Of a stretch of 64,000 nucleotides of DNA, positions 3,962 through 47,638 are shown in pieces (the stretch's first letter is position 1; each line of letters begins with the position of its first letter). A program made the translations under genes and the position numbers. The DNA lies in assembly GCF_055900595.2 (NCBI RefSeq), contig NZ_CM148325.1. One strand, written 5' to 3'. The notes beneath the pieces are model-generated. The model did no database searches. It was not told the DNA's origin and was given only the letters and a program-made list of their open reading frames with translations.

Positions 3962-5393
3962 GCCGTTTCAGCGCCCGTTTTCGCTGGCAACCCGCCTGAC
4001 CTTTTTTATTAGCCTGGCCACCATCGCGGCGTTTTTCGCCTTTGCATGGATCATGATCCACTCAGTAAAAGTGCATTTTGCCGAGCAGGATATTAATGAT
4101 TTAAAAGAGATTAGCGCCACACTTGAACGGGTACTTAATCACCCTGACGAAACGCAAGCCCGACGCTTAATGACGCTGGAAGATATTGTCAGTGGTTATT
4201 CCAATGTGTTGATTTCTCTGGCAGATAGCCACGGTAAAACGGTGTATCACTCCCCCGGCGCGCCGGATATCCGCGAGTTTGCACGTGATGCCATACCCGA
4301 TAAAGACGCTCGGGGCGGCGAGGTGTATCTCCTTTCCGGCCCGACAATGATGATGCCAGGCCACGGTCACGGGCATATAGAACACAGCAACTGGCGGATG
4401 ATTAACTTGCCGGTTGGCCCGCTGGTGGACGGCAAACCGATTTATACGCTCTACATCGCGCTGTCTATTGATTTTCATCTTCATTACATTAATGATTTGA
4501 TGAATAAACTTATTATGACCGCATCGATCATCAGCATCCTGATCGTCTTTATCGTGCTGTTGGCGGTACATAAAGGCCACGCGCCAATTCGCAGCGTCAG
4601 CCGTCAAATCCAGAACATTACCTCGAAAGATCTCGACGTTCGCCTCGATCCACAGACCGTGCCCATTGAACTGGAACAACTGGTGCTGTCGTTCAACCAT
4701 ATGATCGAGCGTATCGAGGATGTCTTTACCCGCCAGTCCAATTTCTGTGCGGATATCGCCCACGAAATTCGCACGCCGATTACGAATCTCATAACGCAAA
4801 CGGAAATCGCCCTCAGCCAGTCGCGCAGCCAGAAGGAGCTGGAAGATGTGCTCTACTCTAATCTCGAAGAGCTGACGCGAATGGCGAAAATGGTCAGCGA
4901 TATGCTGTTTCTCGCTCAGGCCGATAACAACCAGTTAATCCCCGAAAAGAAAATGCTCAACCTGGCGGATGAAGTTGGTAAAGTGTTCGATTTTTTCGAG
5001 GCGTTAGCGGAAGATCGCGGCGTAGCACTACGGTTTGTTGGCGACAAATGTCAGGTTGCGGGCGATCCGCTGATGCTGCGTCGGGCGCTAAGCAACCTGC
5101 TTTCTAACGCCCTGCGTTATACGCCGCCCGGAGAGGCAATTGTAGTGCGCTGTCAAACGGTCGATCACCAGGTGCAAGTTACCGTCGAAAACCCCGGTAC
5201 GCCCATTGCGCCCGAGCACTTACCGCGTTTGTTTGACCGTTTCTACCGCGTTGATCCTTCCCGCCAGCGAAAAGGTGAAGGTAGCGGTATTGGTCTGGCG
5301 ATAGTGAAATCAATTGTTGTCGCGCATAAAGGCACGGTTGCGGTAACGTCAGATGCGCGGGGGACAAGGTTTGTTATCATATTACCCGCTTAA
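3951..5393 (+). CDS. cusS: CusS sensor histidine kinase
   Basis: ORF 3939-5393; start placed at the internal Met ([10 protein letters not shown]) that gives a 480-aa protein overlapping the cusR stop; HisKA (HEIRTP) and HATPase motifs. Confidence 0.85.
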
Positions 5394-5542
5394 TCCTTCA
5401 GCAATCGGCAACTTTTATAACCAGTGTAAAAATAACGTGCCGCAATAATCCTACCTATTAATGATAAAAAGCTGTCACAATTCATAAAAAACTTTAATAT
5501 ACGCCACCCTAAACATAACCAGCGTTAATGTAAGGTTTTTGT

Positions 5543-7780
5543 GTGGACTGGCTTCTTGATGTTTTTGCAACCTGGCTATATGGCTTAAAAGTAATCGCGA
5601 TAACGTTAGCGGTCATCATGTTCATCAGCGGGCTGGACGATTTTTTTATTGATGTCGTCTACTGGGTACGCCGCATTAAACGCAAGTTGAGTGTTTATCG
5701 CCGCTACCCGCGAATGAGTTACCGCGAACTGTATAAACCAGATGAAAAACCGTTAGCGATTATGGTTCCGGCGTGGAATGAAACGGGCGTCATCGGCAAT
5801 ATGGCCGAGCTGGCGGCGACCACGCTCGACTATGAAAACTATCATATCTTTGTTGGCACCTACCCCAACGACCCAGATACTCAGCGTGATGTTGACGAAG
5901 TGTGCGCTCGCTTCCCAAACGTGCATAAGGTAGTCTGCGCGCGTCCTGGCCCCACCAGCAAAGCCGACTGCCTGAACAACGTGCTGGACGCCATCACCCA
6001 GTTTGAGCGTAGCGCCAATTTCGCTTTTGCTGGTTTTATTCTGCATGACGCCGAAGACGTAATTTCACCGATGGAATTGCGTCTGTTCAACTATCTGGTC
6101 GAGCGTAAAGATCTGATTCAGATCCCGGTATACCCATTCGAACGCGAATGGACGCACTTCACCAGCATGACTTACATTGATGAGTTTTCAGAACTGCATG
6201 GCAAAGATGTTCCGGTGCGTGAAGCCCTCGCCGGACAGGTGCCCAGCGCAGGCGTCGGTACTTGTTTCAGCCGCCGCGCCGTGACCGCACTGTTAGCTGA
6301 TGGTGACGGTATTGCTTTCGACGTGCAGAGTCTTACTGAAGATTACGACATTGGTTTCCGCCTGAAAGAAAAAGGTATGACGGAAATTTTTGTCCGTTTT
6401 CCGGTGGTGGACGAAGCCAAAGAACGCGAGCAGCGTAAATTTTTACAGCACGCGCGGACGTCAAACATGATCTGCGTGCGCGAATATTTCCCCGATACCT
6501 TTTCGACGGCGGTTCGACAAAAATCTCGCTGGATCATCGGCATTGTTTTCCAGGGCTTTAAAACCCATAAATGGACCTCCAGCCTGACGCTGAACTACTT
6601 TCTCTGGCGCGACCGCAAAGGGGCAATCAGTAACTTTGTCAGCTTCCTCGCGATGCTGGTGATGATCCAGCTTTTGCTGTTACTGGCGTATGAAAGTTTC
6701 TGGCCCGATGCCTGGCATTTCCTTTCTATTTTCAGCGGCAGCGCATGGTTAATGACCCTGCTGTGGCTAAACTTTGGTTTGATGGTTAACCGCATCGTGC
6801 AGCGGGTGATTTTTGTCACTGGCTACTACGGTCTGACGCAGGGGCTGCTATCTGTCCTGCGTCTTTTCTGGGGCAACCTGATTAACTTCATGGCCAACTG
6901 GCGCGCGTTAAGACAGGTACTTCAACACGGCGATCCACGTCGCGTCGCGTGGGATAAAACAACGCATGACTTCCCCAGCGTCACTGGCGATACCCGCTCG
7001 TTGCGCCCGTTAGGTCAAATTCTGCTGGAAAATCAGGTCATCACTGAAGAACAACTCGATACGGCACTGCGTAATCGTGTCGAAGGTCTACGCTTGGGCG
7101 GTTCAATGTTGATGCAGGGGCTGATTAGCGCCGAACAGCTGGCACAGGCACTGGCAGAGCAAAACGGCGTGGCGTGGGAGTCCATCGATGCCTGGCAGAT
7201 CCCTTCTTCGCTGATTGCCGCGATGCCGGCCTCCGTGGCGCTGCATTATGCGGTGCTACCGCTGCGTCTGGAAAATGATGAGTTAATTGTCGGCAGTGAA
7301 GATGGTATTGACCCGGTTTCGCTGGCAGCCCTGACGCGTAAAGTTGGATGCAAAGTGCGTTACGTCATTGTTCTGCGGGGACAAATTGTCACGGGGTTAC
7401 GTCACTGGTATGCACGCCGACGCGGTCACGATCCGCGGGCAATGTTGTACAATGCGGTTCAGCATCAGTGGCTCACGGAACAGCAGGCCGGTGAAATCTG
7501 GCGGCAATATGTGCCGCATCAGTTCCTGTTCGCCGAAATACTGACCACGCTCGGTCATATTAATCGTTCAGCAATTAACGTGTTGTTATTGCGCCATGAA
7601 CGCAGTTCTCTGCCGCTCGGCAAGTTTTTGGTCACCGAAGGCGTTATCAGCCAGGAAACGTTGGATCGCGTCCTGACAATTCAACGCGAATTACAAGTTT
7701 CGATGCAATCACTATTACTCAAAGCAGGTTTAAACACAGAACAGGTTGCGCAACTGGAGTCCGAAAATGAAGGAGAATAA
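5543..7780 (+). CDS. nfrB: NfrB, bacteriophage N4 adsorption protein B (inner-membrane glycosyltransferase-like)
   Basis: 745-aa ORF matching remembered NfrB length and position next to nfrA. Confidence 0.85.
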   Translation: MDWLLDVFATWLYGLKVIAITLAVIMFISGLDDFFIDVVYWVRRIKRKLSVYRRYPRMSYRELYKPDEKPLAIMVPAWNETGVIGNMAELAATTLDYENYHIFVGTYPNDPDTQRDVDEVCARFPNVHKVVCARPGPTSKADCLNNVLDAITQFERSANFAFAGFILHDAEDVISPMELRLFNYLVERKDLIQIPVYPFEREWTHFTSMTYIDEFSELHGKDVPVREALAGQVPSAGVGTCFSRRAVTALLADGDGIAFDVQSLTEDYDIGFRLKEKGMTEIFVRFPVVDEAKEREQRKFLQHARTSNMICVREYFPDTFSTAVRQKSRWIIGIVFQGFKTHKWTSSLTLNYFLWRDRKGAISNFVSFLAMLVMIQLLLLLAYESFWPDAWHFLSIFSGSAWLMTLLWLNFGLMVNRIVQRVIFVTGYYGLTQGLLSVLRLFWGNLINFMANWRALRQVLQHGDPRRVAWDKTTHDFPSVTGDTRSLRPLGQILLENQVITEEQLDTALRNRVEGLRLGGSMLMQGLISAEQLAQALAEQNGVAWESIDAWQIPSSLIAAMPASVALHYAVLPLRLENDELIVGSEDGIDPVSLAALTRKVGCKVRYVIVLRGQIVTGLRHWYARRRGHDPRAMLYNAVQHQWLTEQQAGEIWRQYVPHQFLFAEILTTLGHINRSAINVLLLRHERSSLPLGKFLVTEGVISQETLDRVLTIQRELQVSMQSLLLKAGLNTEQVAQLESENEGE

Positions 7781-39557: not shown

Positions 39558-39720
39558 GATTCCTCCTTGCTGCCAGTCGCAACCATTTTTTATCAACCAG
39601 GCTAGCGGTATATCCGAGCAGTGTTGGTATTTCGGATGGCTTCAGCTCAGGCTTACGCTTACGACGATTTGATACTCTGTAGATGTGTCCGTTCATGACA
39701 CGAATAAGCGGTGTAGCCAT
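39550..39720 (-). CDS. ninE: NinE-like small basic protein (below ORF-track cutoff)
   Basis: 56-aa [59 protein letters not shown] read from the minus strand; start overlaps ybcN stop and stop overlaps ybcO start. Confidence 0.6.
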   Translation of the reverse strand: MATPLIRVMNGHIYRVSNRRKRKPELKPSEIPTLLGYTASLVDKKWLRLAARRNHG

Positions 39721-40175
39721 TACGCCTCCTGCTTGTCGCGGAGCAGCTGGAACTCGCAGCTCTGCGGAATAGTCAGGTGGCAGCCAATATTCATCGCCCA
39801 GGCTTCAACCTTACACAGGAAGACATACATCTCTCCGGTATCAAGATTGGAGGTATGGCGTAACGACTGGATAGTGGTGATATCACCGGTTACGACATCA
39901 ACCAGGTCTTTGGTTTCATAACCGAGATATGTGTGTTTGAGAGCATCTTTTACCCAAGCTGGAGTGGCGAACGTTTTACCCCTGCTGATGAGGTATTCAC
40001 TGATTTCGCTGTACCACATGTGGCTGAGTGCATTCTGGGAAAGACTGCGTTTCTCACGCCACGGTTTAAGCACCAGGCGAAAGCATTTGCCCTCCTCCAG
40101 ATAAGGCTGGATCTGCCGACCGATAGCGGTGAAGTTGCCGCGATGTAATTTGATGCCGTCTTGTGAGAGGTTCAC
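39720..40175 (-). CDS. ybcN: NinB/YbcN recombination protein
   Basis: 151-aa ORF matching remembered DLP12 YbcN / lambda NinB family. Confidence 0.8.
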
Positions 40176-40359: not shown

Positions 40360-41037
40360 TTAATCGTACGAGTCGAGTATGTTCTGAAACGCCCAGCCAT
40401 CCTCCTTAGGAACACAAGACAGAATCGAATGAATTAGATCCCCTGCGGAAAGAAGTAACCCTTCTTGCCCTTCAAGAAAATAACGCCATTTAGGTCCATG
40501 AAACAGATTGTTCCGTAACCGGAAACAAACGAACAAGCACACTGCAAGCTGAGTCTCAGGCTCGGTTGTCATAGCTTGCATGGCTGAAAAACAGTCATCT
40601 CTCGCCTTTTGAGAGGTGTGGTGTAATTCCCCGCATAGGCTTTCAAACTTGCTTTTATCATTTACATAGCGTTCTGAAAAAAAATCGTATGTACACTTGA
40701 GAACCCCCAGATCCACAACCTCCATTTGCAAAAGACGATTGGCATATTTCGCACTTTTGCCTTGCCCCCCAGCGCAATTAAGAAGTAGAGACTCGAAGAA
40801 AGAGAAGTACAAAAAATAACGATTAACGGCGGTAAGGATAGATGGGGTAATCCTGCCTTCTGCATTAATCAACTCGTCAAATTCTGATGAAAAATCCAAC
40901 TGTTCATCCTTTTCCATTATATTCGGCCATTTATTGATATTGCACATCAGTCGCTCTTGGCAATGACAGGTTTGCTCTCGGTAATGTCTCAAACGCCCCA
41001 AAAAGTAGTCTCGCAAATGCTCTAGTTGCTCGCGCAT
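40360..41037 (-). CDS. Hypothetical protein with Rx4-6H (HEPN-like) motif; candidate abortive-infection cargo
   Basis: 225-aa ORF, no recognisable phage core function; contains RLRNNLFHG matching the HEPN Rx4-6H signature. Confidence 0.4.
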   Translation of the reverse strand: MREQLEHLRDYFLGRLRHYREQTCHCQERLMCNINKWPNIMEKDEQLDFSSEFDELINAEGRITPSILTAVNRYFLYFSFFESLLLNCAGGQGKSAKYANRLLQMEVVDLGVLKCTYDFFSERYVNDKSKFESLCGELHHTSQKARDDCFSAMQAMTTEPETQLAVCLFVCFRLRNNLFHGPKWRYFLEGQEGLLLSAGDLIHSILSCVPKEDGWAFQNILDSYD

Positions 41038-41197
41038 AACAACTTCGGCGATAACCGGCTATTCGGTCGTTCTTTATACGCTACGCTTGAAGGCGCAAGG
41101 CCAACGCTTACCTTGTCACGTTCCTATTGCGGTTTTGCTGCAATGTTCCTGTCAGTCTGACATAAAAAACCCCTCAATCATCTGAGGGGATTAGACA

Positions 41198-41560: not shown

Positions 41561-42169
41561 CTATTGCAATCTAGCCTGACGCAAATGTGGCAATACCCTG
41601 CTCCACTTATTATCCTGCCAAGGCTGGAATTTTACATGTGCCGTTTTTCTGGCAAGGATTTCGCGCGCCTTATGTAGTATCTGGGGATATTCTTGCTCGA
41701 TAGAAGTAAAGCGACCGGCTTCGCGGTGTTCCGCAACCTGAAGAAGTGGAGTAACGTTCTGGCAGGCGGTTAACATCGTATCACTTGCTCGCCATAACCA
41801 AGCAAGTGTGCAAAGTTCGTTATCAGTGAATTGTTTTGTGATCGGGGATTGTTGAACTTCTCGATCGAGAATATCCAGAACCCAGCGGCGGAACTCTTTG
41901 GCTACAGGAGTTCGTGCAAACATGGCGATCAAATGGGCTCCGCGAAGGCTAAATACTCGAGACTCCTGCATTCCACGAGGGGTGGTCACTTTGACCACCC
42001 TTGTCATCATATCTGTAAATTCATCTGAGTGACGAGAGTAAATGCGCTGAACTGCTTTATCGTCCGCATATTCCAGAGCTAAACCAACTTCAGTGGCAGT
42101 AAGCCAAATTCTGTTATTGTGGCAAATTGGGGTAAACGTCGTTTTGTGGAATGCTAATTGAGTAGTCAT
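41561..42169 (-). CDS. Bro-N domain protein (antirepressor-like)
   Basis: 202-aa ORF; N-terminal half fits Bro-N pattern (F..F.....RI.LTATEV..ALEY...RIYSRHSDEF...RVF...G..LIA....TPVAKEFRRWVLDIL). Confidence 0.6.
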   Translation of the reverse strand: MTTQLAFHKTTFTPICHNNRIWLTATEVGLALEYADDKAVQRIYSRHSDEFTDMMTRVVKVTTPRGMQESRVFSLRGAHLIAMFARTPVAKEFRRWVLDILDREVQQSPITKQFTDNELCTLAWLWRASDTMLTACQNVTPLLQVAEHREAGRFTSIEQEYPQILHKAREILARKTAHVKFQPWQDNKWSRVLPHLRQARLQ

Positions 42170-42595
42170 AGTATCACCTCATCAGGTTAACCATCACCAC
42201 CAACGACGCCAATCGACTGGTGGTGAACTGTGCAAGGTTGGCGTAACCGGCTACTCAAACCCGGCGCTCCCGAAGAAGCCCTCACACAGCCCACCATAAT
42301 TTGGGCGTAGCCGTGCTTAGCGCATAAAAAAACCGCTTAACGCGGTATGCGTTGAGTAGTATTCCGGGACGCCAATCCCGTGTGCCGATTTTGCGGCAAC
42401 GCACAGAATATAGCGCCGGATAAATAATGTCGTCAACCCTTGCAAATGGGTGGCGCGATGATCACTACTACCACTATAACCGCTCCAACTGTTGCAACTA
42501 CTTTAGGCCAAGACATCAAGATTTCCATATCACCTTTAGCTGCGAAACGAACAGAGGTTCCCATCTCTATACTGCCGAGGCCAAACACCGAATAT

Positions 42596-42720
42596 AAAAA
42601 ACCGCAGGTGCATTTCTGCATCTATGACGGGAGAAGATAGTTTGGATTGTGTGGGCTCATAAACTCCCCGTTTGGTGCAGTAGTCACCGTAGTTGTTCAT
42701 ATTCTGATGACATGATAATT
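42596..42720 (-). repeat. Direct repeat copy B (~125 bp), paralogue of 40209-40333
   Basis: Aligns base-for-base with copy A at about 85 percent identity; weaker hairpin plus T-run on minus strand. Confidence 0.6.
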
Positions 42721-42917
42721 TCCTATTGAATAGAAAAAATTAACACTACTCATTCTTATGACTAGAAAAAGCAATCATGCTAATAATCATTGTTGTTCCA
42801 GTTCCAAATGCAGCGAAATAATCACTAATATTTTTTCTACCGGTTTCGACTTTGATGCTATATTCTGCTAACACCTAACTAACACTACGTTTCACACAGC
42901 AATTACATGGAAATAAC

Positions 42918-43265
42918 ATGACTATCAAAGCGACTGACATAGAGATTCTTCATCGTTATGCTGAAGGGGTAATGGAACGTTCTAACCATCATGCAAAAAA
43001 TGTTGGTGCAGCCGCTCTTACATTGCTAGGAGGTGTTATCTGGAAAGCCCTGCCCGGCTCAATCGAGATAAGAACGTATAACGGAAGTCTTGCAAATATG
43101 GTGTGGTGGCAAAGCGAAAGAACATTAAAAAATTATGCAATCTCATACAACCATAATTCATGTGAAATTGAAATGAGAGATGAATCAGTCAAAGGTGCTG
43201 TATTATTTAGCATTTCCAACGAAACCACTCCAGAAAAAATATTATCACAGCTTTCTGAGCTTTAA
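42918..43265 (+). CDS. Hypothetical protein, opposite strand to the surrounding early-right operon
   Basis: 115-aa ORF with AT-rich upstream region and a GGCGGTG-ctaa-CACCGCC hairpin right after its stop. Confidence 0.45.
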   Translation: MTIKATDIEILHRYAEGVMERSNHHAKNVGAAALTLLGGVIWKALPGSIEIRTYNGSLANMVWWQSERTLKNYAISYNHNSCEIEMRDESVKGAVLFSISNETTPEKILSQLSEL

Positions 43266-43270
43266 TTAAA

Positions 43271-43288
43271 GGCGGTGCTAACACCGCC
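43271..43288. terminator. Stem-loop after the 115-aa gene (possible terminator, no clear T-tract)
   Basis: GGCGGTG-ctaa-CACCGCC perfect 7-bp stem. Confidence 0.35.
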
Positions 43289-43469
43289 CATACCATTACT
43301 CCACATCTTACGCAACTTGATAATTATGCTCTATTAAATACCCACAATATTTCATCAATGCATGGGTCAGCTATAAAATGTTTACCGTGGTAATTCCTGT
43401 TTTCGCAACATCTCAAAAGAACAATAAACACTGTATTTCTTCAAGTAACGAAGAATCTTTCTTTGCCCG

Positions 43470-44171
43470 TCATACACTTGCTCCTTTCAGCCCAAACTTA
43501 GCTTTGATTTCTGCGATCTTCGCCAGAGCCTGTGCACGATTTAGAGGTCTACCGCCCATGACAGGAAGTTGTTTTACTGGTTCAGGTATCGCCTCACCAC
43601 GGTTAATTCGCGCGGTCATACAGGTCAGCTCATCGGCAGCTTTACGCCGTAATTCCGCGTCAGTCAGCGCATTGGCCCGCATGTTCTGGTACAGGTTGGT
43701 AACCAACCAGTAGTGCGCGTTTGATTTCCATGGATAAGACTCTGCGTCCGGATACAGGCCACGCTTCCGGCAATACTCGTAAACCATATCAACCAGCTCG
43801 CTAGCGTTTGGCAGCCCGGCGGTAACGGATGCTTCTTCCCGGCACCAGGCAACAAACTGCCCGGGTGATGGCAGGAATGGTCGATTCTGCCGACGGGCTA
43901 CGCGCATTCCAGCGTTAACCTGTTCCATCGTGGTGATCCCATTTTCCCGGAAAGCCAGAACCCACTGGCGGCGGATTTCGTTCAGTTCGTTCTGGTCACG
44001 GTTAGCCAGGCTCGCAGGGAAAGTTGCCAGTAACTGGCTGAACACACCGTTGATGATCTGCGCTACCTGCTGTACCTGCGGCTTTTCGTCGTACTGTTCC
44101 GGCATGTTGTTGGCGATCCGACGCATCTGCTCACGGTCAAAGTTAACCATCTGTGCGGCGATGTTTTTCAT
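43470..44171 (-). CDS. P: Replication protein P (DnaB helicase loader)
   Basis: 233-aa ORF essentially matching lambda P (MKNIAAQMVNFDREQMRRIANNMPEQYDEKPQVQQVAQIINGVFSQ...). Confidence 0.95.
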   Translation of the reverse strand: MKNIAAQMVNFDREQMRRIANNMPEQYDEKPQVQQVAQIINGVFSQLLATFPASLANRDQNELNEIRRQWVLAFRENGITTMEQVNAGMRVARRQNRPFLPSPGQFVAWCREEASVTAGLPNASELVDMVYEYCRKRGLYPDAESYPWKSNAHYWLVTNLYQNMRANALTDAELRRKAADELTCMTARINRGEAIPEPVKQLPVMGGRPLNRAQALAKIAEIKAKFGLKGASV

Positions 44172-45097
44172 AGATCAACCCCGTAAATCCAGTCTGTGTT
44201 TGTCAGGTCGAGTTTTGGTTTGCTGGCTGTCACGCCTGCCTGTTGCTTGTTACGGTTGATTTCGAGCTGGGTCCACTTGTCGCGGAGTTTGGCCGGACTT
44301 AGCACGTTACCGGACCAGAAGTTGTCCTGGCATGCCCAGCGGAACAGCACGCACATGTCGCGGTGGTTACGTCCGTCACGTTCACGCATCAGGCGGATAT
44401 CGTTAGCCCACCCTGCAAAATTCGGTTTTCTGGCTGATGGCGCGATGGTCTTCACCATGTCAAACATCCACTCTGCGGCGGTCAGGTCTTCTGCTGTCCC
44501 CCACTTGCTGCCGCTCTGAATCGCAGCATCCGGTTTCACCACAGGAAGGTCGTTTTCTGGCTGATCAGAGGATTCGCCAGAATTCTCGGACGAATAAGGT
44601 TTTATATTGTCTTTTGTTAGTTTGTCTTTTGTGTTTACCTGATTCGGGTAAACGCCTTTACCTGATTTGGGTAAACTTTTCTTACCTGATTCAGGTAAAT
44701 TTACCTCTTTCAGGTAAACTTTATTTTTCTTACCTGATTCGGGTAATGTTGACCATTCACTGACCACATTATTAATACCGATATTCCGCCCGCTCTGAAT
44801 CAAAATCCCACGCTTTACCAGAACACTTTTTGCAGCAGAACACTTGTGCGGTAATATCTCGGTCAATCCAGACAGTTGCTCGTTGCTCACCCAATCCAGT
44901 TTTTTATTAAAGCCATATGTTTTGCGCATGACAGCCAGGAAGACCAGAAGCTGGTGCTGTGTTAATCCGGCCAGCATCACAGCTTCCAGCAACTCATTTG
45001 CAATGCGCGTATAACCATCATCGAGATCTGCCACGCGCGGCTCCTTTTGTGCCGCATCCGGCACTGGAAAATTGAATATCTCAGCAGTGTTTGCCAT
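44168..45097 (-). CDS. O: Replication initiator O
   Basis: ORF 44168-45187; start placed at MANTAEIFNFPVP by analogy with lambda O; iterons lie inside the gene; C-terminus conserved with lambda O. Confidence 0.85.
   Translation of the reverse strand: MANTAEIFNFPVPDAAQKEPRVADLDDGYTRIANELLEAVMLAGLTQHQLLVFLAVMRKTYGFNKKLDWVSNEQLSGLTEILPHKCSAAKSVLVKRGILIQSGRNIGINNVVSEWSTLPESGKKNKVYLKEVNLPESGKKSLPKSGKGVYPNQVNTKDKLTKDNIKPYSSENSGESSDQPENDLPVVKPDAAIQSGSKWGTAEDLTAAEWMFDMVKTIAPSARKPNFAGWANDIRLMRERDGRNHRDMCVLFRWACQDNFWSGNVLSPAKLRDKWTQLEINRNKQQAGVTASKPKLDLTNTDWIYGVDL
44635..44747. repeat. ori-lambda-type iterons inside the O gene
   Basis: Five 18-bp repeats of TACCTGATTCGGGTAAAC type (44635, 44658, 44682, 44701, 44730) with an adjacent AT-rich run. 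Confidence 0.85.
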
Positions 45098-45183
45098 AAT
45101 TCCTCCCGCAATGAGTGTGTTACGATTTGCACCTGAAAGTCGGTTCTGTTCCAGCAGACCGGCTTTCGCCATTTCTGAACCTG

Positions 45184-45723
45184 TCATATCGCCCCCAGCA
45201 TGGTAGTAACCATCGCCATCAATGGACCAGCCAGATCTGGGTCCACACGAAACATCGATACAATACCTTCACTAATTTCCTTCAGTTTCTGGTGGCGTGG
45301 TGCGTTGAGAATGACAGCCTGTTTTGCCTCACTGAGTTCCTTTTCCATTTCAGCCAGCCGAGCTATGAAGCTATCCTGCTCAACCAGGTGGCCGCGATAT
45401 TCCAGCGGTAGTACCGCCAGAATTGCCGGGGTCAGTTCACGCACGTTATTTCGGTATTTTTCAGAATCGAATTTGTTATCGAGGAAGCGGAACAGCTTCT
45501 GGCGTGCACGGCTGACATCATCAGGGAAATCGATGGTGCCGCCGCCCTGCTCCCGATACTCATTCACAATGAGTGCGGCAACGACATCCTGATTATCTAC
45601 AGCCGACCAGGCGCGGACGGCATCACGGATTTTTTCGTGGCCTGGAGCTTGTTTTGTTTGAGAACGATTTATCACCGCAGTCGGGCTAAATCCGCTAGTC
45701 TGTTGGTATGTAAGTGGTTGCAT
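45184..45723 (-). CDS. YdaT/CII-position regulatory protein (function uncertain)
   Basis: 179-aa ORF located between the cro-like gene and O, the slot occupied by cII in lambda and ydaT in Rac. Confidence 0.45.
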   Translation of the reverse strand: MQPLTYQQTSGFSPTAVINRSQTKQAPGHEKIRDAVRAWSAVDNQDVVAALIVNEYREQGGGTIDFPDDVSRARQKLFRFLDNKFDSEKYRNNVRELTPAILAVLPLEYRGHLVEQDSFIARLAEMEKELSEAKQAVILNAPRHQKLKEISEGIVSMFRVDPDLAGPLMAMVTTMLGAI

Positions 45724-45792: not shown

Positions 45793-46023
45793 TTAAGCTG
45801 CGTTCTTTTCAGTGTGTGGAAACAACTTCGGAAGATCCGGGCGAATCTGGTATGCCTTCACTACTCCACCAGTAGCCGTAACAATGCTGCCGACATGTTC
45901 AGGGGATACCTTTGCTTTGTTGTGAAGCCACTTATAGACGGCCTGCTGTGAAACTTCGCAGGCAGCGCCTAGTTTCTTTTGTGAACCAACGATATTGATC
46001 GCTGTTTTGATGGCTGGGTTCAT
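45793..46023 (-). CDS. Cro/YdaS-like HTH regulator
   Basis: 76-aa ORF divergent from cI with HTH-like segment (LGAACEVSQQAVYKWL). Confidence 0.7.
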   Translation of the reverse strand: MNPAIKTAINIVGSQKKLGAACEVSQQAVYKWLHNKAKVSPEHVGSIVTATGGVVKAYQIRPDLPKLFPHTEKNAA

Positions 46024-46127
46024 AACAACCTCCGTGGTTAATTTGAATCAAGATTAAAACTATGGTTGTTTTTAGTCAACAACCATTTTCGTTTGATGAA
46101 ATAAAACCTTGGTTGTACATTTGGACT
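46024..46127. promoter_or_regulatory. Immunity-region divergent promoter/operator region (OR-like)
   Basis: Intergenic between cro-like and cI genes; inverted repeats built on GGTTGT/ACAACC (ATGGTTGTTTTTAGTCAACAACCAT, AACCTTGGTTGTACA). Confidence 0.55.
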
Positions 46128-46817
46128 ATGAAAACAACACTCTCAGAAAGACTTAAAGAAGCCAGATTAGCGCGAGGCCTTACACAAAAGGCGCTTGGGG
46201 ATTTGGTCGGGGTTAGCCAAGCAGCTATTCAGAAAATCGAAACAGGGAAAGCTAACCAAACAACTAAAATCGTGGAGATCGCGAACGCTTTGGGTGTGCG
46301 CGCAGAATGGTTATCTTCTGGCGTTGGAAATATGTCAGACAGTACAGTGCAACCAATACAAACAACTGTCAGCCATTCCAAATACTTTAAGATTGACGTT
46401 CTTGATATCGAAGTGAGTGCCGGGCCGGGAGTCATCAACCGTGAGTTTGTAGAAGTTCTACGTTCGGTTGAGTATTCGTTTGACGATGCTCGTCACATGT
46501 TCGATGGCAGGAAGGCGGAAAATATCCGTATCATTAACGTACGCGGTGACAGCATGTCAGGAACGATCGAACCAGGTGATCTGCTATTCGTTGATATCAC
46601 TGTTAAATCTTTCGACGGTGATGGTATCTATGCGTTTCTGTACGACGACACAGCCCATGTAAAGCGCCTGCAAATGATGAAGGATAAACTGCTGGTTATC
46701 TCTGATAACAAGAGCTACTCACCGTGGGACCCAATCGAGAAAGACGAGATGAACCGGGTATTCATCTTCGGGAAAGTCATCGGGAGCATGCCGCAGACGT
46801 ATAGGAAGCATGGATAA
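46128..46817 (+). CDS. cI: CI-type repressor (HTH plus S24 LexA-like autopeptidase domain)
   Basis: ORF 46062-46817; start at MKTTLSERLKEARLARGLTQKALGDLVGVSQAAIQKIE (HTH); C-terminal S24 motifs (RGDSMSGTI, KRL). Confidence 0.85.
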   Translation: MKTTLSERLKEARLARGLTQKALGDLVGVSQAAIQKIETGKANQTTKIVEIANALGVRAEWLSSGVGNMSDSTVQPIQTTVSHSKYFKIDVLDIEVSAGPGVINREFVEVLRSVEYSFDDARHMFDGRKAENIRIINVRGDSMSGTIEPGDLLFVDITVKSFDGDGIYAFLYDDTAHVKRLQMMKDKLLVISDNKSYSPWDPIEKDEMNRVFIFGKVIGSMPQTYRKHG

Positions 46818-46912: not shown

Positions 46913-47638
46913 ATGGAAGAACGTGGGAATTACCTAATAGACCCCCTAGAAGTAATTGGTTCTGGCGGTTTTGGCCTTGTAGAAAAAATAAGGTTATATA
47001 ACTCACAAAGAAAAATTTGTGGTCTATATGCCAGAAAAATTTTACGACCTGATGCAACAGATCCTGAACTCTTTACCAGATTTGAACGAGAAGTAAGATA
47101 TCAAACTGAATGCCTGCATACTAATATTGTCCAAATATTCATATGCCACTTACAGAATGCTCAGCCTTGGTTCGTAATGGAACTAGCAGAAACAAATCTT
47201 GAAGAAGAAATAAAAAGTGGAACTCTTACAAAGGCTGAAAAAATCTCTATTGTAAAAATGGTACTAAATGCCGTCGGATGGATTCATAAGAAAGGATATC
47301 TTCATCGGGATATAAAACCACTAAATGTACTAAAATTTAAAGATGGAATTTATAAGTTATCTGACTTCGGCCTTGCAAAAAATGTGTCACCAGATGCCAA
47401 TACACAGCTATTAACACAAATTGGCCAATACCCCGCTACTCCTAAATACTTTGATTACAACGTTTTCCTCAACGGATATTCAAAACAATCAGATATATAT
47501 TCAATTGGTATTTTAATTGAAGAATTAAATATTGATGGTTTTGATGATATAATAAACAAATGTACGCATAGACAACTTAACAAAAGATTCCTGACCGTAG
47601 AGCAGATCTTTGAGGAATTGGAGTTGAAACGCTTATGA
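46913..47638 (+). CDS. Eukaryotic-like (Hanks-type) Ser/Thr protein kinase, minimal 241-aa form
   Basis: Gly-rich loop GSGGFGLV, catalytic loop HRDIKPLN, DFG (SDFGLAK); very AT-rich; directly downstream of cI in the rexAB slot. Confidence 0.8.
   Translation: MEERGNYLIDPLEVIGSGGFGLVEKIRLYNSQRKICGLYARKILRPDATDPELFTRFEREVRYQTECLHTNIVQIFICHLQNAQPWFVMELAETNLEEEIKSGTLTKAEKISIVKMVLNAVGWIHKKGYLHRDIKPLNVLKFKDGIYKLSDFGLAKNVSPDANTQLLTQIGQYPATPKYFDYNVFLNGYSKQSDIYSIGILIEELNIDGFDDIINKCTHRQLNKRFLTVEQIFEELELKRL

What the first reader, a model, noticed from the sequence alone, without database searches (positions are those of the whole stretch)
42721..43288. Orphan opposite-strand gene with AT-rich promoter region between P and the Bro-N insert
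A 115-aa ORF (42918-43265) is transcribed against the surrounding early-right operon, preceded by about 200 bp of AT-rich sequence and followed by a perfect 7-bp stem-loop. This is the signature of an autonomously expressed moron (lysogenic conversion or exclusion gene). The protein has no family I can recognise.
Basis: seen in the sequence. Interest (0 to 1): 0.4.

Follow-up and report, generated by a model that had tools for sequence, protein, structure and literature searches.

The report
Inverted Vch_cass14 gene replacing prophage ren
A real, strongly conserved 115-residue gene of the structurally solved but functionally unknown Vch_cass14 family sits backwards, with its own hairpin, where lambda-like prophages normally carry ren; it looks like a self-contained accessory gene borrowed from bacterial defence islands, and what it does is still unknown.

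Summary
The ORF 42918-43265 (+) lies against the cro-O-P-nin operon. The 200 bp upstream have 31.5% G+C. A perfect 7-bp hairpin (43271-43288) follows the stop codon.

- **Distribution:** the same module is in 180 of 5426 complete E. coli genomes, in one context.
- **Relatives:** versions 50-78% identical sit in prophages of Citrobacter and of unidentified hosts, almost always inverted between operon genes.
- **Selection:** the coding sequence is under strong purifying selection.
- **Hairpin:** it is conserved with compensatory base changes.
- **Replacement:** the module replaces ren; a 10-codon ren stub remains.
- **Outside prophages:** the family lies in defence islands beside AbiU/AIPR, restriction-modification genes, nuclease-like genes, Fic and integrases. 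It has no constant partner.

The moron reading is therefore supported by architecture and comparison. A promoter is not demonstrated; the best candidate is TGCTATATT at 42856-42864. Function remains inferred, most likely a role in phage or mobile-element conflict through the conserved pocket. This is a new member of a known kind, of modest interest.

The parts
42918..43265 (+). Coding sequence of a 115-aa Vch_cass14-family protein (identical to RefSeq WP_000152742.1).
43271..43288 (.). Perfect 7-bp G+C-rich hairpin with a 4-nt loop, 6 nt after the stop codon. Probably a terminator or insulator between convergent transcription units.
   Evidence: Sequence. Fold -13.6 kcal/mol, z -3.4. Conserved in position in Citrobacter prophage homologues, 100% paired, with 3 of 7 pairs changed on both sides. 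In L003 and L004 it is followed by a T-run. It was not reported by the terminator scan on either strand.
42856..42864 (+). Best promoter candidate: the extended -10-like TGCTATATT, ending 53 nt before the ATG. It has no good -35 (TCTACC at a 17-nt spacing).
   Evidence: The motif was found by my own scan. Related motifs (TGCTATATT, TGCTATGTT, TGCAATGTT, TGCGATGTT) lie 47-67 nt before the ATG in 8 of 12 other prophage homologues. The motif class occurs 5 times in 128 kb of the window, both strands counted. It lies in the only 22-nt upstream piece still similar to the Citrobacter loci. This is an inference, not shown.
42909..42912 (+). Weak Shine-Dalgarno-like GGAA, 5 nt before the ATG.
   Evidence: Read from the sequence. 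AGG or GGA is conserved at this position in homologues.
42700..42917 (+). A+T-rich non-coding stretch upstream of the gene, 31.5% G+C in 42700-42899. The left edge of the module lies at about 42720-42745.
   Evidence: Composition profile. Sequence left of 42690 belongs to the antirepressor module, which is also present in phage IdasGreatGrand. Bases 42677-42745 resemble sequence upstream of ninB in Citrobacter prophages.
43289..43440 (.). A+T-rich spacer (about 36% G+C) between the hairpin and the ren stub. No ORF, no Rfam match and no terminator-like site.
43441..43473 (-). Ten-codon stub of ren (MTGKERFFVT), overlapping the stop codon of P as ATGA. It marks the right junction where the module replaced ren.
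   Evidence: Read from the sequence. Similarity to 148 lambdoid phage records covers only window 43460-43500, annotated there as the end of P plus the start of ren.

Best explanation
**What it is.** The locus is a self-contained accessory cassette of about 740 bp (roughly 42720-43459). It was acquired from the bacterial mobile-gene and defence-island pool, and it replaced ren downstream of P in a lambdoid E. coli prophage.

**The product.** It encodes a 115-aa Vch_cass14-family protein. By homology to 3IMO this is an alpha+beta sandwich dimer. Its deep pocket is lined by residues that are nearly invariant across the family: Y14, R21, H24, H25, N60, Y77 and H79.

**How it is probably expressed.**
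- The gene points against the pR operon and ends in a conserved hairpin. It is therefore most likely transcribed from its own weak promoter (candidate TGCTATATT, 42856-42864).
- That would happen when pR is repressed, that is, in the lysogen.
- During lytic growth it would be opposed by convergent transcription.

**What it probably does.** The most likely role is in conflict between phages or mobile elements. It would act alone by binding a small molecule or a partner in the conserved pocket, giving exclusion or defence, or modulating a toxin-like effector.

**Shown:** gene reality, family, fold, module limits, hairpin conservation, orientation conservation and defence-island neighbourhoods.

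**Inferred:** the promoter, lysogen-specific expression and any defence role. I put the defence or conflict role at about 0.4 on its own.
For: **Family and fold**
- Pfam PF18315 at 71.7 bits against a cut-off of 26.7.
- 3IMO E 1.3e-17.
- AF2 model pLDDT 97.2.

**Pocket**
- The 3IMO paper describes a dimer and a pocket about 15 A long holding a linear ligand, with Tyr14, Arg21 and Asn60 at its mouth (PMC3548836).
- These residues, plus H25, Y77 and H79, are at least 85-94% conserved in 84 diverse members.

**Selection**
- dN is 0.08-0.37 with saturated dS; omega is 0.04-0.14 where it can be computed.

**Module behaviour**
- It is in 180 of 5426 complete E. coli genomes, single copy, at least 99% identical.
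- It is absent from 50,697 phage records, and no viral fold relatives were found.
- Homologues in Citrobacter and IMG/VR prophages sit in the nin region of backbones with different replication modules. In nearly all of them both neighbours are on the opposite strand.
- The hairpin is conserved with covariation.
- ren is replaced.

**Context elsewhere**
- Serratia: 35 bp downstream of an AIPR gene that matches PADLOC AbiU at 5.8e-53. A second AIPR neighbour is in L029.
- Immediately after an HNH type II-like nuclease, a type IIG methylase and a type I S subunit.
- Overlapping the start of DUF2726 or integrase genes.
- PDDEXK_4 and Fic genes follow downstream.
- Within 3 kb lie GajB, ThsA and ThsB, QatD, AbiGi, HipA and SoFic.
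Against: - There is no experimental or transcriptomic evidence for expression.
- Promoter-like sites are not enriched over shuffles.
- The candidate promoter motif was found post hoc. In Citrobacter it overlaps the first codons of a divergent theta-like gene, which could explain its conservation.
- The hairpin has no U-tract on the gene's strand in this window.
- The protein matches no PADLOC or NCBIfam model.
- No paper links the family to defence.
- Defence-island association is guilt by association, from 26 genome loci without a formal background rate.
- The neighbours are heterogeneous, so no specific mechanism follows from them.
- The strongly basic surface noted for 3IMO is not conserved: this protein has net charge -2 and the family median pI is 6.4.
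Confidence: 0.55

Rival explanations
1. The gene is an anti-defence factor or an orphan antitoxin-like neutraliser that serves the phage. In other genomes Vch_cass14 genes sit directly beside toxin-like or nuclease-like effectors, often with overlapping stop and start codons, like an antitoxin. On this reading the solo prophage copy neutralises a host effector of that kind (for example an AbiU/AIPR-type protein), or acts as a sponge for a signalling molecule through its pocket.
For: - Tight, same-strand pairing with diverse effectors: AIPR/AbiU, HNH_2, DUF2726 with a 4-bp overlap, PDDEXK_4, and an unannotated 165-aa protein followed by Fic in five loci.
- It is a small dimeric protein with a conserved pocket.
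Against: - The partners differ from locus to locus. Several are ordinary restriction-modification subunits or integrases, not toxins.
- Gene order is not constant: it lies upstream in some loci and downstream in others.
- In the window and in integron cassettes the gene is solo.
- Anti-defence genes of temperate phages are normally inside early operons. This gene is consistently inverted against the early operon, so lytic transcription would oppose it.
Confidence: 0.2
2. The gene is a lysogenic-conversion gene unrelated to phages. The protein would bind a hydrophobic linear metabolite (lipid-like, acyl or polyamine-like) and alter host physiology or stress tolerance.
For: - 3IMO has a deep hydrophobic pocket holding an unidentified linear ligand. 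Nine of the 12 pocket residues named in the paper are identical in this protein, and the other three (I15A, A22S, A37L) are substituted.
- The family occurs in integron cassettes and in soil and water bacteria of many phyla.
- Some loci have metabolic neighbours.
Against: - There is no recurrent metabolic partner.
- The neighbours that recur are defence, toxin or recombinase genes.
- The ligand density in the crystal was not identified and may be adventitious.
Confidence: 0.12
3. The gene is silent or neutral hitch-hiking cargo. On this reading the cassette is a horizontally acquired A+T-rich insert, possibly silenced, and it persists in E. coli by linkage in one prophage lineage. The hairpin would matter mainly as a terminator for the pR operon after P (a tR2-like site), not for the gene.
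For: - All 180 E. coli copies are at least 99% identical and sit in one context, so they record essentially a single acquisition.
- No promoter stands out.
- On the minus strand the hairpin is followed by TTTAATTA, but on the plus strand no T-run follows it.
- A+T-rich foreign DNA is typically silenced by H-NS in E. coli (general knowledge).
Against: - Across the prophage homologues (50-78% identical to the window protein) the protein is under strong purifying selection while synonymous sites are saturated.
- The inverted orientation and the hairpin are kept in different backbones.
- None of the copies inspected has a frameshift.
- These points argue for a maintained function at least in the wider family.
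Confidence: 0.13

Closest known systems
Vch_cass14 integron cassette protein of Vibrio cholerae (PDB 3IMO; Pfam PF18315)
   Same: - Length is similar and both are single-domain proteins.
- The pocket-mouth residues Tyr14, Arg21 and Asn60 and most pocket-lining residues are conserved.
- Both are single-gene mobile units.
   Different: - This copy is in a lambdoid prophage, not an integron.
- No GTTRRRY core site lies within about 100 nt after the gene, and no intI gene is nearby (read).
- The protein is slightly acidic (net -2), whereas 3IMO shows a strongly basic sheet surface.
- The function of 3IMO is itself unknown.
Lambdoid morons read against their operon, such as lambda bor and its homologue iss
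   Same: - Both are single small genes inverted inside a phage operon.
- Both differ in composition from their surroundings.
- Both are present in only some related phages.
- The near-identical prophage of strain 2022CK-00450 also carries iss inverted among the lysis genes.
- That bor is expressed from the prophage is general knowledge.
   Different: - There is no sequence or fold relation.
- bor and iss encode a lipoprotein with a known serum-resistance phenotype.
- Here no signal peptide, promoter or phenotype is known.
Lambda ren, the usual occupant of this slot
   Same: It has the same position, immediately after P. The first 4-5 codons of ren remain at 43460-43473.
   Different: - ren is co-directional with P and overlaps its stop codon.
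- The present gene is inverted, unrelated in sequence and carries its own hairpin.
Single-gene anti-phage integron cassettes (BRiCs and the defence cassettes of sedentary chromosomal integrons)
   Same: - Both are small cassettes carried by integrons.
- Recent work shows that many cassettes of unknown function are phage-defence genes (10.64898/2026.03.17.712381 and the references cited in it).
- The Vch_cass14 family was first found as such a cassette and lies in defence islands.
   Different: - No paper found here lists this family among tested or positive cassettes.
- It matches no PADLOC model.

Membership tests
Pfam PF18315 VCH_CASS14 family | Profile match above the curated gathering score over most of the domain | tested here: met
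   71.7 bits against a cut-off of 26.7; residues 12-104 match profile positions 2-92 of 97.
Pfam PF18315 VCH_CASS14 family | Two-layer alpha+beta sandwich with strand and helix order b1-a1-a2-b2..b6-a3, as in 3IMO | tested here: met
   [not shown]
Pfam PF18315 VCH_CASS14 family | Conserved pocket-mouth residues Tyr14, Arg21 and Asn60 and a hydrophobic pocket lining | tested here: met
   Y14, R21 and N60 are present. Of the nine named lining residues, A26, A33, I49, Y77 (Tyr75 in 3IMO) and I84 (Ile82) are identical, I40V is conservative, and I15A, A22S and A37L differ (alignment against the text). Family-wide conservation is 85-94%.
Pfam PF18315 VCH_CASS14 family | Homodimer through the helix faces | not testable with these tools
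   Only single-chain prediction is available. The dimer is reported for 3IMO in crystal and in solution.
Moron (autonomous extra gene in a phage genome, in the sense of Hendrix and colleagues) | Present between conserved genes in some related phages and absent from others | tested here: met
   It replaces ren after P. It is in 180 of 5426 E. coli genomes, while 148 lambdoid phage records match only the P/ren junction and none encodes the protein.
Moron (autonomous extra gene in a phage genome, in the sense of Hendrix and colleagues) | Base composition different from the flanks | tested here: met
   G+C is 0.32-0.42 across 42600-43500, against 0.52-0.59 in O and P.
Moron (autonomous extra gene in a phage genome, in the sense of Hendrix and colleagues) | Own promoter | tested here: inconclusive
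   The consensus scan is not above shuffles, 4 against 3.6. One extended -10-like motif, conserved in position, is a candidate only.
Moron (autonomous extra gene in a phage genome, in the sense of Hendrix and colleagues) | Own terminator | tested here: inconclusive
   The hairpin is conserved with covariation. A T-run follows it in L003 and L004, but not in this window, and the terminator scan did not report it.
Moron (autonomous extra gene in a phage genome, in the sense of Hendrix and colleagues) | Expressed from the repressed prophage | not testable with these tools
   This needs transcript data from a lysogen.
Integron gene cassette | attC recombination site after the gene and an integron integrase platform | tested here: not met
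   No GTTRRRY core lies within about 100 nt downstream, and no intI-like ORF is nearby. The setting is a prophage (read).
Type II toxin-antitoxin pair (as the antitoxin) | Adjacent co-directional toxin gene in one operon | tested here: not met
   In the window no plus-strand ORF of 40 aa or more adjoins the gene. Pairing with effector-like genes is seen only in other genomes.
Catalogued anti-phage defence systems (PADLOC-DB 2.0) | Match to a model of a known or candidate defence protein | tested here: not met
   No PADLOC family matches at E up to 1.

The most novel reading that the evidence does not exclude
The Vch_cass14 family may be an unrecognised single-protein module of phage or mobile-element conflict. 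It would be shared by integron cassettes, defence islands and inverted prophage morons, and it would work through its conserved His/Tyr/Arg/Asn pocket. It could sense or sequester a small molecule, or dock onto and control nuclease-type effectors such as AbiU/AIPR, DUF2726 or HNH proteins. The E. coli prophage copy would then give the lysogen a lysogeny-specific exclusion or protection phenotype.
Probability: 0.25. Interest if true: 0.6.

Novelty: new member of a known kind. Interest (0 to 1): 0.3.

Why it matters
If the gene is expressed in lysogens and affects phage infection or toxin activity, it would assign a first function to a family solved structurally in 2009. That family is spread across Proteobacteria, Bacteroidota, Cyanobacteria, Myxococcota and others, with 282 clusters at 50% identity.

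It would also add a compact one-gene system to the set of prophage-borne defences carried by pathogenic E. coli of serotypes O26, O103 and O157.

If the gene is silent, the locus is simply one more mosaic joint in the ren-nin region of lambdoid prophages. In either case the finding corrects the label 'orphan': the protein has a family, a fold and a RefSeq name.

Tried and rejected
1. **Split theta-like gene.** I first thought the upstream A+T-rich stretch was the decayed 5' half of a theta-like (PF06440) gene split by the antirepressor module. tblastn shows instead a nearly complete theta-like pseudogene, with an in-frame stop, at about 40970-41159 (-). Only a 22-nt piece near the target (42844-42865) resembles the theta 5' end (E 0.24). 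The split-gene idea is rejected.
2. **Flanking repeats.** An inverted repeat (42623-42643 and 43454-43474, 17 of 21 bases) includes the P/ren junction, and a 10-nt direct repeat TGCTAACACC (42866 and 43276) flanks the gene. Both are about what chance gives in 1.2 kb, so I did not use them.
3. **HEPN-like partner.** I considered the 225-aa ORF (40360-41037) as a functional partner. The genes in that position differ among Citrobacter prophages and show no similarity to it, so no link can be made.
4. **DNA binding through a basic surface.** This was suggested by 3IMO and by Lys/Ala-rich tails in three members. The basic surface is not a family feature: median pI is 6.4 and this protein has net charge -2.
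5. **Searches that found nothing:**
   - NCBIfam and PADLOC gave nothing for the target.
   - The BFVD viral fold library gave no hit at E 0.001 or better.
   - The afdb50 library was unavailable.
   - Literature searches for WP_000152742 and PF18315 found nothing.
   - PDB sequence searches for two recurrent unannotated neighbours found nothing.
6. **Pattern scan.** The scan with the 84-sequence alignment failed because no stretch was conserved enough. A 13-sequence alignment worked.

Full report
**Setting**

The window carries a lambdoid E. coli prophage whose early-right operon runs on the minus strand:
- repressor-like gene, 46062-46817 (+)
- cro-like gene, 45793-46023 (-)
- YdaT-like gene, 45184-45723 (-)
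- O, 44168-45187 (-)
- P, 43470-44171 (-); Pfam Phage_lambda_P, E 9e-62
- Bro-N/P22AR_C antirepressor, 41561-42169 (-)
- ninB/ybcN, 39720-40175 (-)

The finding lies between P and the antirepressor.

**Check of the observation**

The 115-aa ORF at 42918-43265 (+) exists.

G+C falls to 0.315 in 42700-42899, against 0.52-0.59 in O and P. The whole block 42600-43500 is A+T-rich (0.36-0.42), including the ORF itself and the 170 bp after it. The low G+C therefore marks a foreign insert rather than specifically a promoter.

The hairpin GGCGGTG-CTAA-CACCGCC lies at 43271-43288, six bases after the stop codon. It folds at -13.6 kcal/mol, z = -3.4. On the gene's strand the tail is CATACCAT, with no U-tract. 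On the other strand the tail is TTTAATTA. The terminator scan reported it on neither strand.

Sigma-70-like sites in 42100-43600 are no more frequent than in shuffled sequence, 4 against 3.6.

**The protein is not an orphan**

- It matches Pfam PF18315 (VCH_CASS14) at E 5.7e-20 and 71.7 bits, against a cut-off of 26.7.
- It matches phrog_5959 over its full length.
- It matches PDB 3IMO at E 1.3e-17.
- An AlphaFold2 model built on 84 homologues has pLDDT 97.2.

The paper on 3IMO (PMC3548836) describes a dimer formed through the helix faces. It describes a hydrophobic pocket about 15 A long that held an unidentified linear ligand. Tyr14, Arg21 and Asn60 form a polar cluster at the pocket mouth.

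Those three residues are present here. Of the nine lining residues the paper names, five are identical, one change is conservative (I40V), and three differ (I15A, A22S, A37L).

Across 84 diverse members, Y14, R21, H24, H25, N60, W63, Y73, Y77, H79 and G93 are each conserved at 85% or more. The basic surface stressed for 3IMO is not a family trait: median pI is 6.4 and this protein has net charge -2.

A full scan of 1.84 billion representatives finds only 282 clusters (E up to 0.001). Nearly all are single-domain proteins of about 113 residues.

RefSeq already labels the identical protein WP_000152742.1 'Vch_cass14 family protein' in a recent record and 'hypothetical protein' in older ones.

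**The gene is real and maintained**

Against homologues 63-78% identical, from Citrobacter, Serratia and IMG/VR prophages, dN is 0.08-0.37 while synonymous sites are saturated. Omega is 0.04-0.14 where it can be computed.

**Module limits**

*Right side.* Similarity to 148 lambdoid phage records covers only window 43460-43500, which is the end of P and the start of ren. The minus strand keeps a ten-codon stub, MTGKERFFVT (43441-43473), overlapping the P stop codon. The insert therefore replaced ren.

*Left side.* Sequence up to about 42690 belongs to the antirepressor module, which is also found without this gene in phage IdasGreatGrand.

The unit is thus about 42720-43459. It comprises an A+T-rich leader, the ORF, the hairpin and an A+T-rich spacer.

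**Distribution**

The 601-bp core is present once, at 99% identity or more and in the same context, in 180 of 5426 complete E. coli genomes. These include O26:H11 11368 and strains of O103 and O157:H7.

No deposited phage record encodes a relative (tblastn). No viral predicted structure resembles it.

IMG/VR holds 24 contigs with a relative. Fourteen carry the E. coli gene at 99-100% protein identity. The other ten carry more distant relatives (36-75% identity).

**Comparative anatomy in prophages**

Homologues 50-78% identical occur in the nin region of Citrobacter prophages and of IMG/VR prophage contigs. Their replication modules differ (DnaB-type, O with an IstB-like protein, DnaT with P). 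In nearly all of them the gene is flanked on both sides by genes of the opposite strand.

In most Citrobacter loci the gene lies 53 bp from a divergent theta-like (PF06440) gene. In the window a theta-like pseudogene with an in-frame stop lies at about 40970-41159 (-). The antirepressor module and a 66-aa ORF lie between it and the target.

The hairpin after the stop codon is kept in every one of these loci:
- In six distinct sequences all 42 pair cells are paired.
- Three of seven pairs change on both sides.
- The covariation score is 0.40, against 0.15 in shuffles.
- In L003 and L004 a run of T follows it, which makes a canonical terminator for the gene's strand.

Upstream, the only piece still similar between the window and the Citrobacter loci is 22 nt (42844-42865). 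It contains TGCTATATT (42856-42864), an extended -10-like element ending 53 nt before the ATG. Related motifs lie 47-67 nt before the ATG in eight of the twelve other prophage homologues examined. The motif class occurs five times in 128 kb of the window.

This is my best promoter candidate. It was found after the fact, and in Citrobacter it overlaps theta codons, so it stays an inference.

**Context outside prophages**

Twenty-six loci from a scan of 100,044 species genomes span Alphaproteobacteria, Myxococcota (Sorangium sce0458), Cyanobacteria, Bacteroidota, Planctomycetota, Leptospiraceae and others. There the gene is usually inside a same-strand cluster. No partner is constant.

Immediate neighbours:
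- an AIPR protein 35 bp upstream in Serratia marcescens, matching PADLOC AbiU at 5.8e-53, and a second AIPR in a Bacteroidaceae genome
- an HNH type II-like nuclease, a type IIG methylase, a type I specificity subunit and a DnaE2-type polymerase directly upstream
- tyrosine recombinases whose start overlaps the stop codon in three loci, with a related recombinase about 1.1 kb downstream in a fourth
- a DUF2726 protein with a 4-bp overlap, next to an integrase
- a PDDEXK_4 protein
- an unannotated 165-aa protein followed by Fic, in five related loci

Within 3 kb the neighbours also include GajB, ThsA with TIR proteins, QatD, AbiGi, HipA and SoFic.

AbiU1/AIPR proteins are described as abortive-infection proteins with an N-terminal HEPN toxin domain, often linked to restriction-modification genes (PMC3506569).

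This is a clear defence-island and mobile-element signature. It rests on guilt by association, without a formal background rate.

**Interpretation**

The unit is a compositionally foreign one-gene block, inverted against the lytic operon, with a conserved end hairpin. It is present in a minority of related prophages, and its protein is under selection. lambda bor and its homologue iss are the closest analogues in layout. In the near-identical prophage of strain 2022CK-00450, iss is likewise inverted among the lysis genes.

*Expression.* Because pR transcription must cross the gene in antisense, the simplest logic is expression when pR is repressed, that is, in the lysogen. This is inferred, not shown.

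*Function.* I favour a role in phage or mobile-element conflict through the conserved pocket, at about 0.4. Three rivals follow:
- an antitoxin-like or anti-defence neutraliser serving the phage
- a ligand-binding conversion factor unrelated to phages
- silent cargo whose hairpin mainly serves as a tR2-like stop for the pR operon

The gene fails the tests for an integron cassette in this setting (no attC-like core, no intI). It fails the test for a toxin-antitoxin pair (no adjacent co-directional gene). It also fails the test for catalogued defence systems (no PADLOC match).

**Verdict**

The protein belongs to a known family with a solved structure and an unknown function. This makes it a new member of a known kind, of modest interest. 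The useful new points are these:
- the conserved inverted-moron arrangement that replaces ren
- the covarying hairpin
- the defence-island association of the family

Noticed in passing
window 42216-42413 (-), with the promoter-like site 42436->42407 (-) and the antirepressor gene 41561-42169 (-): The 'Bro-N insert' is a phage P1 immI-type unit. Rfam finds a C4 antisense RNA (42216-42301, 72.7 bits), isrK (42326-42398, 60.7 bits) and, just below its gathering score, the a1/b1 C4 target (42361-42413, 40.6 bits against 46.7). These lie directly upstream of the Bro-N/P22AR_C antirepressor and downstream of a 10-of-12 sigma-70-like site. The same module, without the Vch_cass14 gene, is in phage IdasGreatGrand.
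   Followed up: partly
window about 40970-41159 (-) and ORF 40360-41037 (-): A theta-like (Pol III theta/Hot, PF06440) pseudogene with an in-frame stop runs into a 225-aa ORF. That ORF's first 21 residues are theta residues 43-62. Its C-terminal part carries an RNNLFH (Rx4H, HEPN-like) motif. RefSeq calls a protein in the corresponding position of O26:H11 'HEPN domain-containing'.
   Followed up: partly
window 43441-43473 (-): A ten-codon remnant of ren (MTGKERFFVT) overlaps the stop codon of P. Similarity to ren-bearing lambdoid phages ends at 43460.
   Followed up: yes
window 46913-47638 (+): A 241-aa ORF just downstream of the repressor-like gene, on the same strand, has eukaryotic-type protein kinase motifs (GSGGFG ... 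HRDIKPLN ... DFG). It may be a second lysogen-expressed accessory gene in the immunity region, read from the translation.
   Followed up: no
window 42623-42643 and 43454-43474; also 42866-42875 and 43276-43285: A 21-nt inverted repeat (17 of 21 bases) has one arm on the P/ren junction and brackets the module. A 10-nt exact direct repeat, TGCTAACACC, flanks the ORF, with one copy inside the hairpin. Both are near chance expectation for 1.2 kb.
   Followed up: partly
L006-L009 (Serratia marcescens chromosome), 4218-6348: A 582-aa AIPR protein matching PADLOC AbiU lies 35 bp upstream of a 115-aa Vch_cass14 homologue (64% identical) on the same strand, between housekeeping genes. It looks like a two-gene island and would be a good system for testing whether the small protein controls an Abi effector.
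   Followed up: partly
P0119, P0143, P0120 and P0053 (family members): A few members carry extensions: Lys/Ala-rich or otherwise low-complexity charged C-terminal tails in three proteins, and a 265-residue N-terminal duplicated repeat domain of unknown type in one.
   Followed up: no
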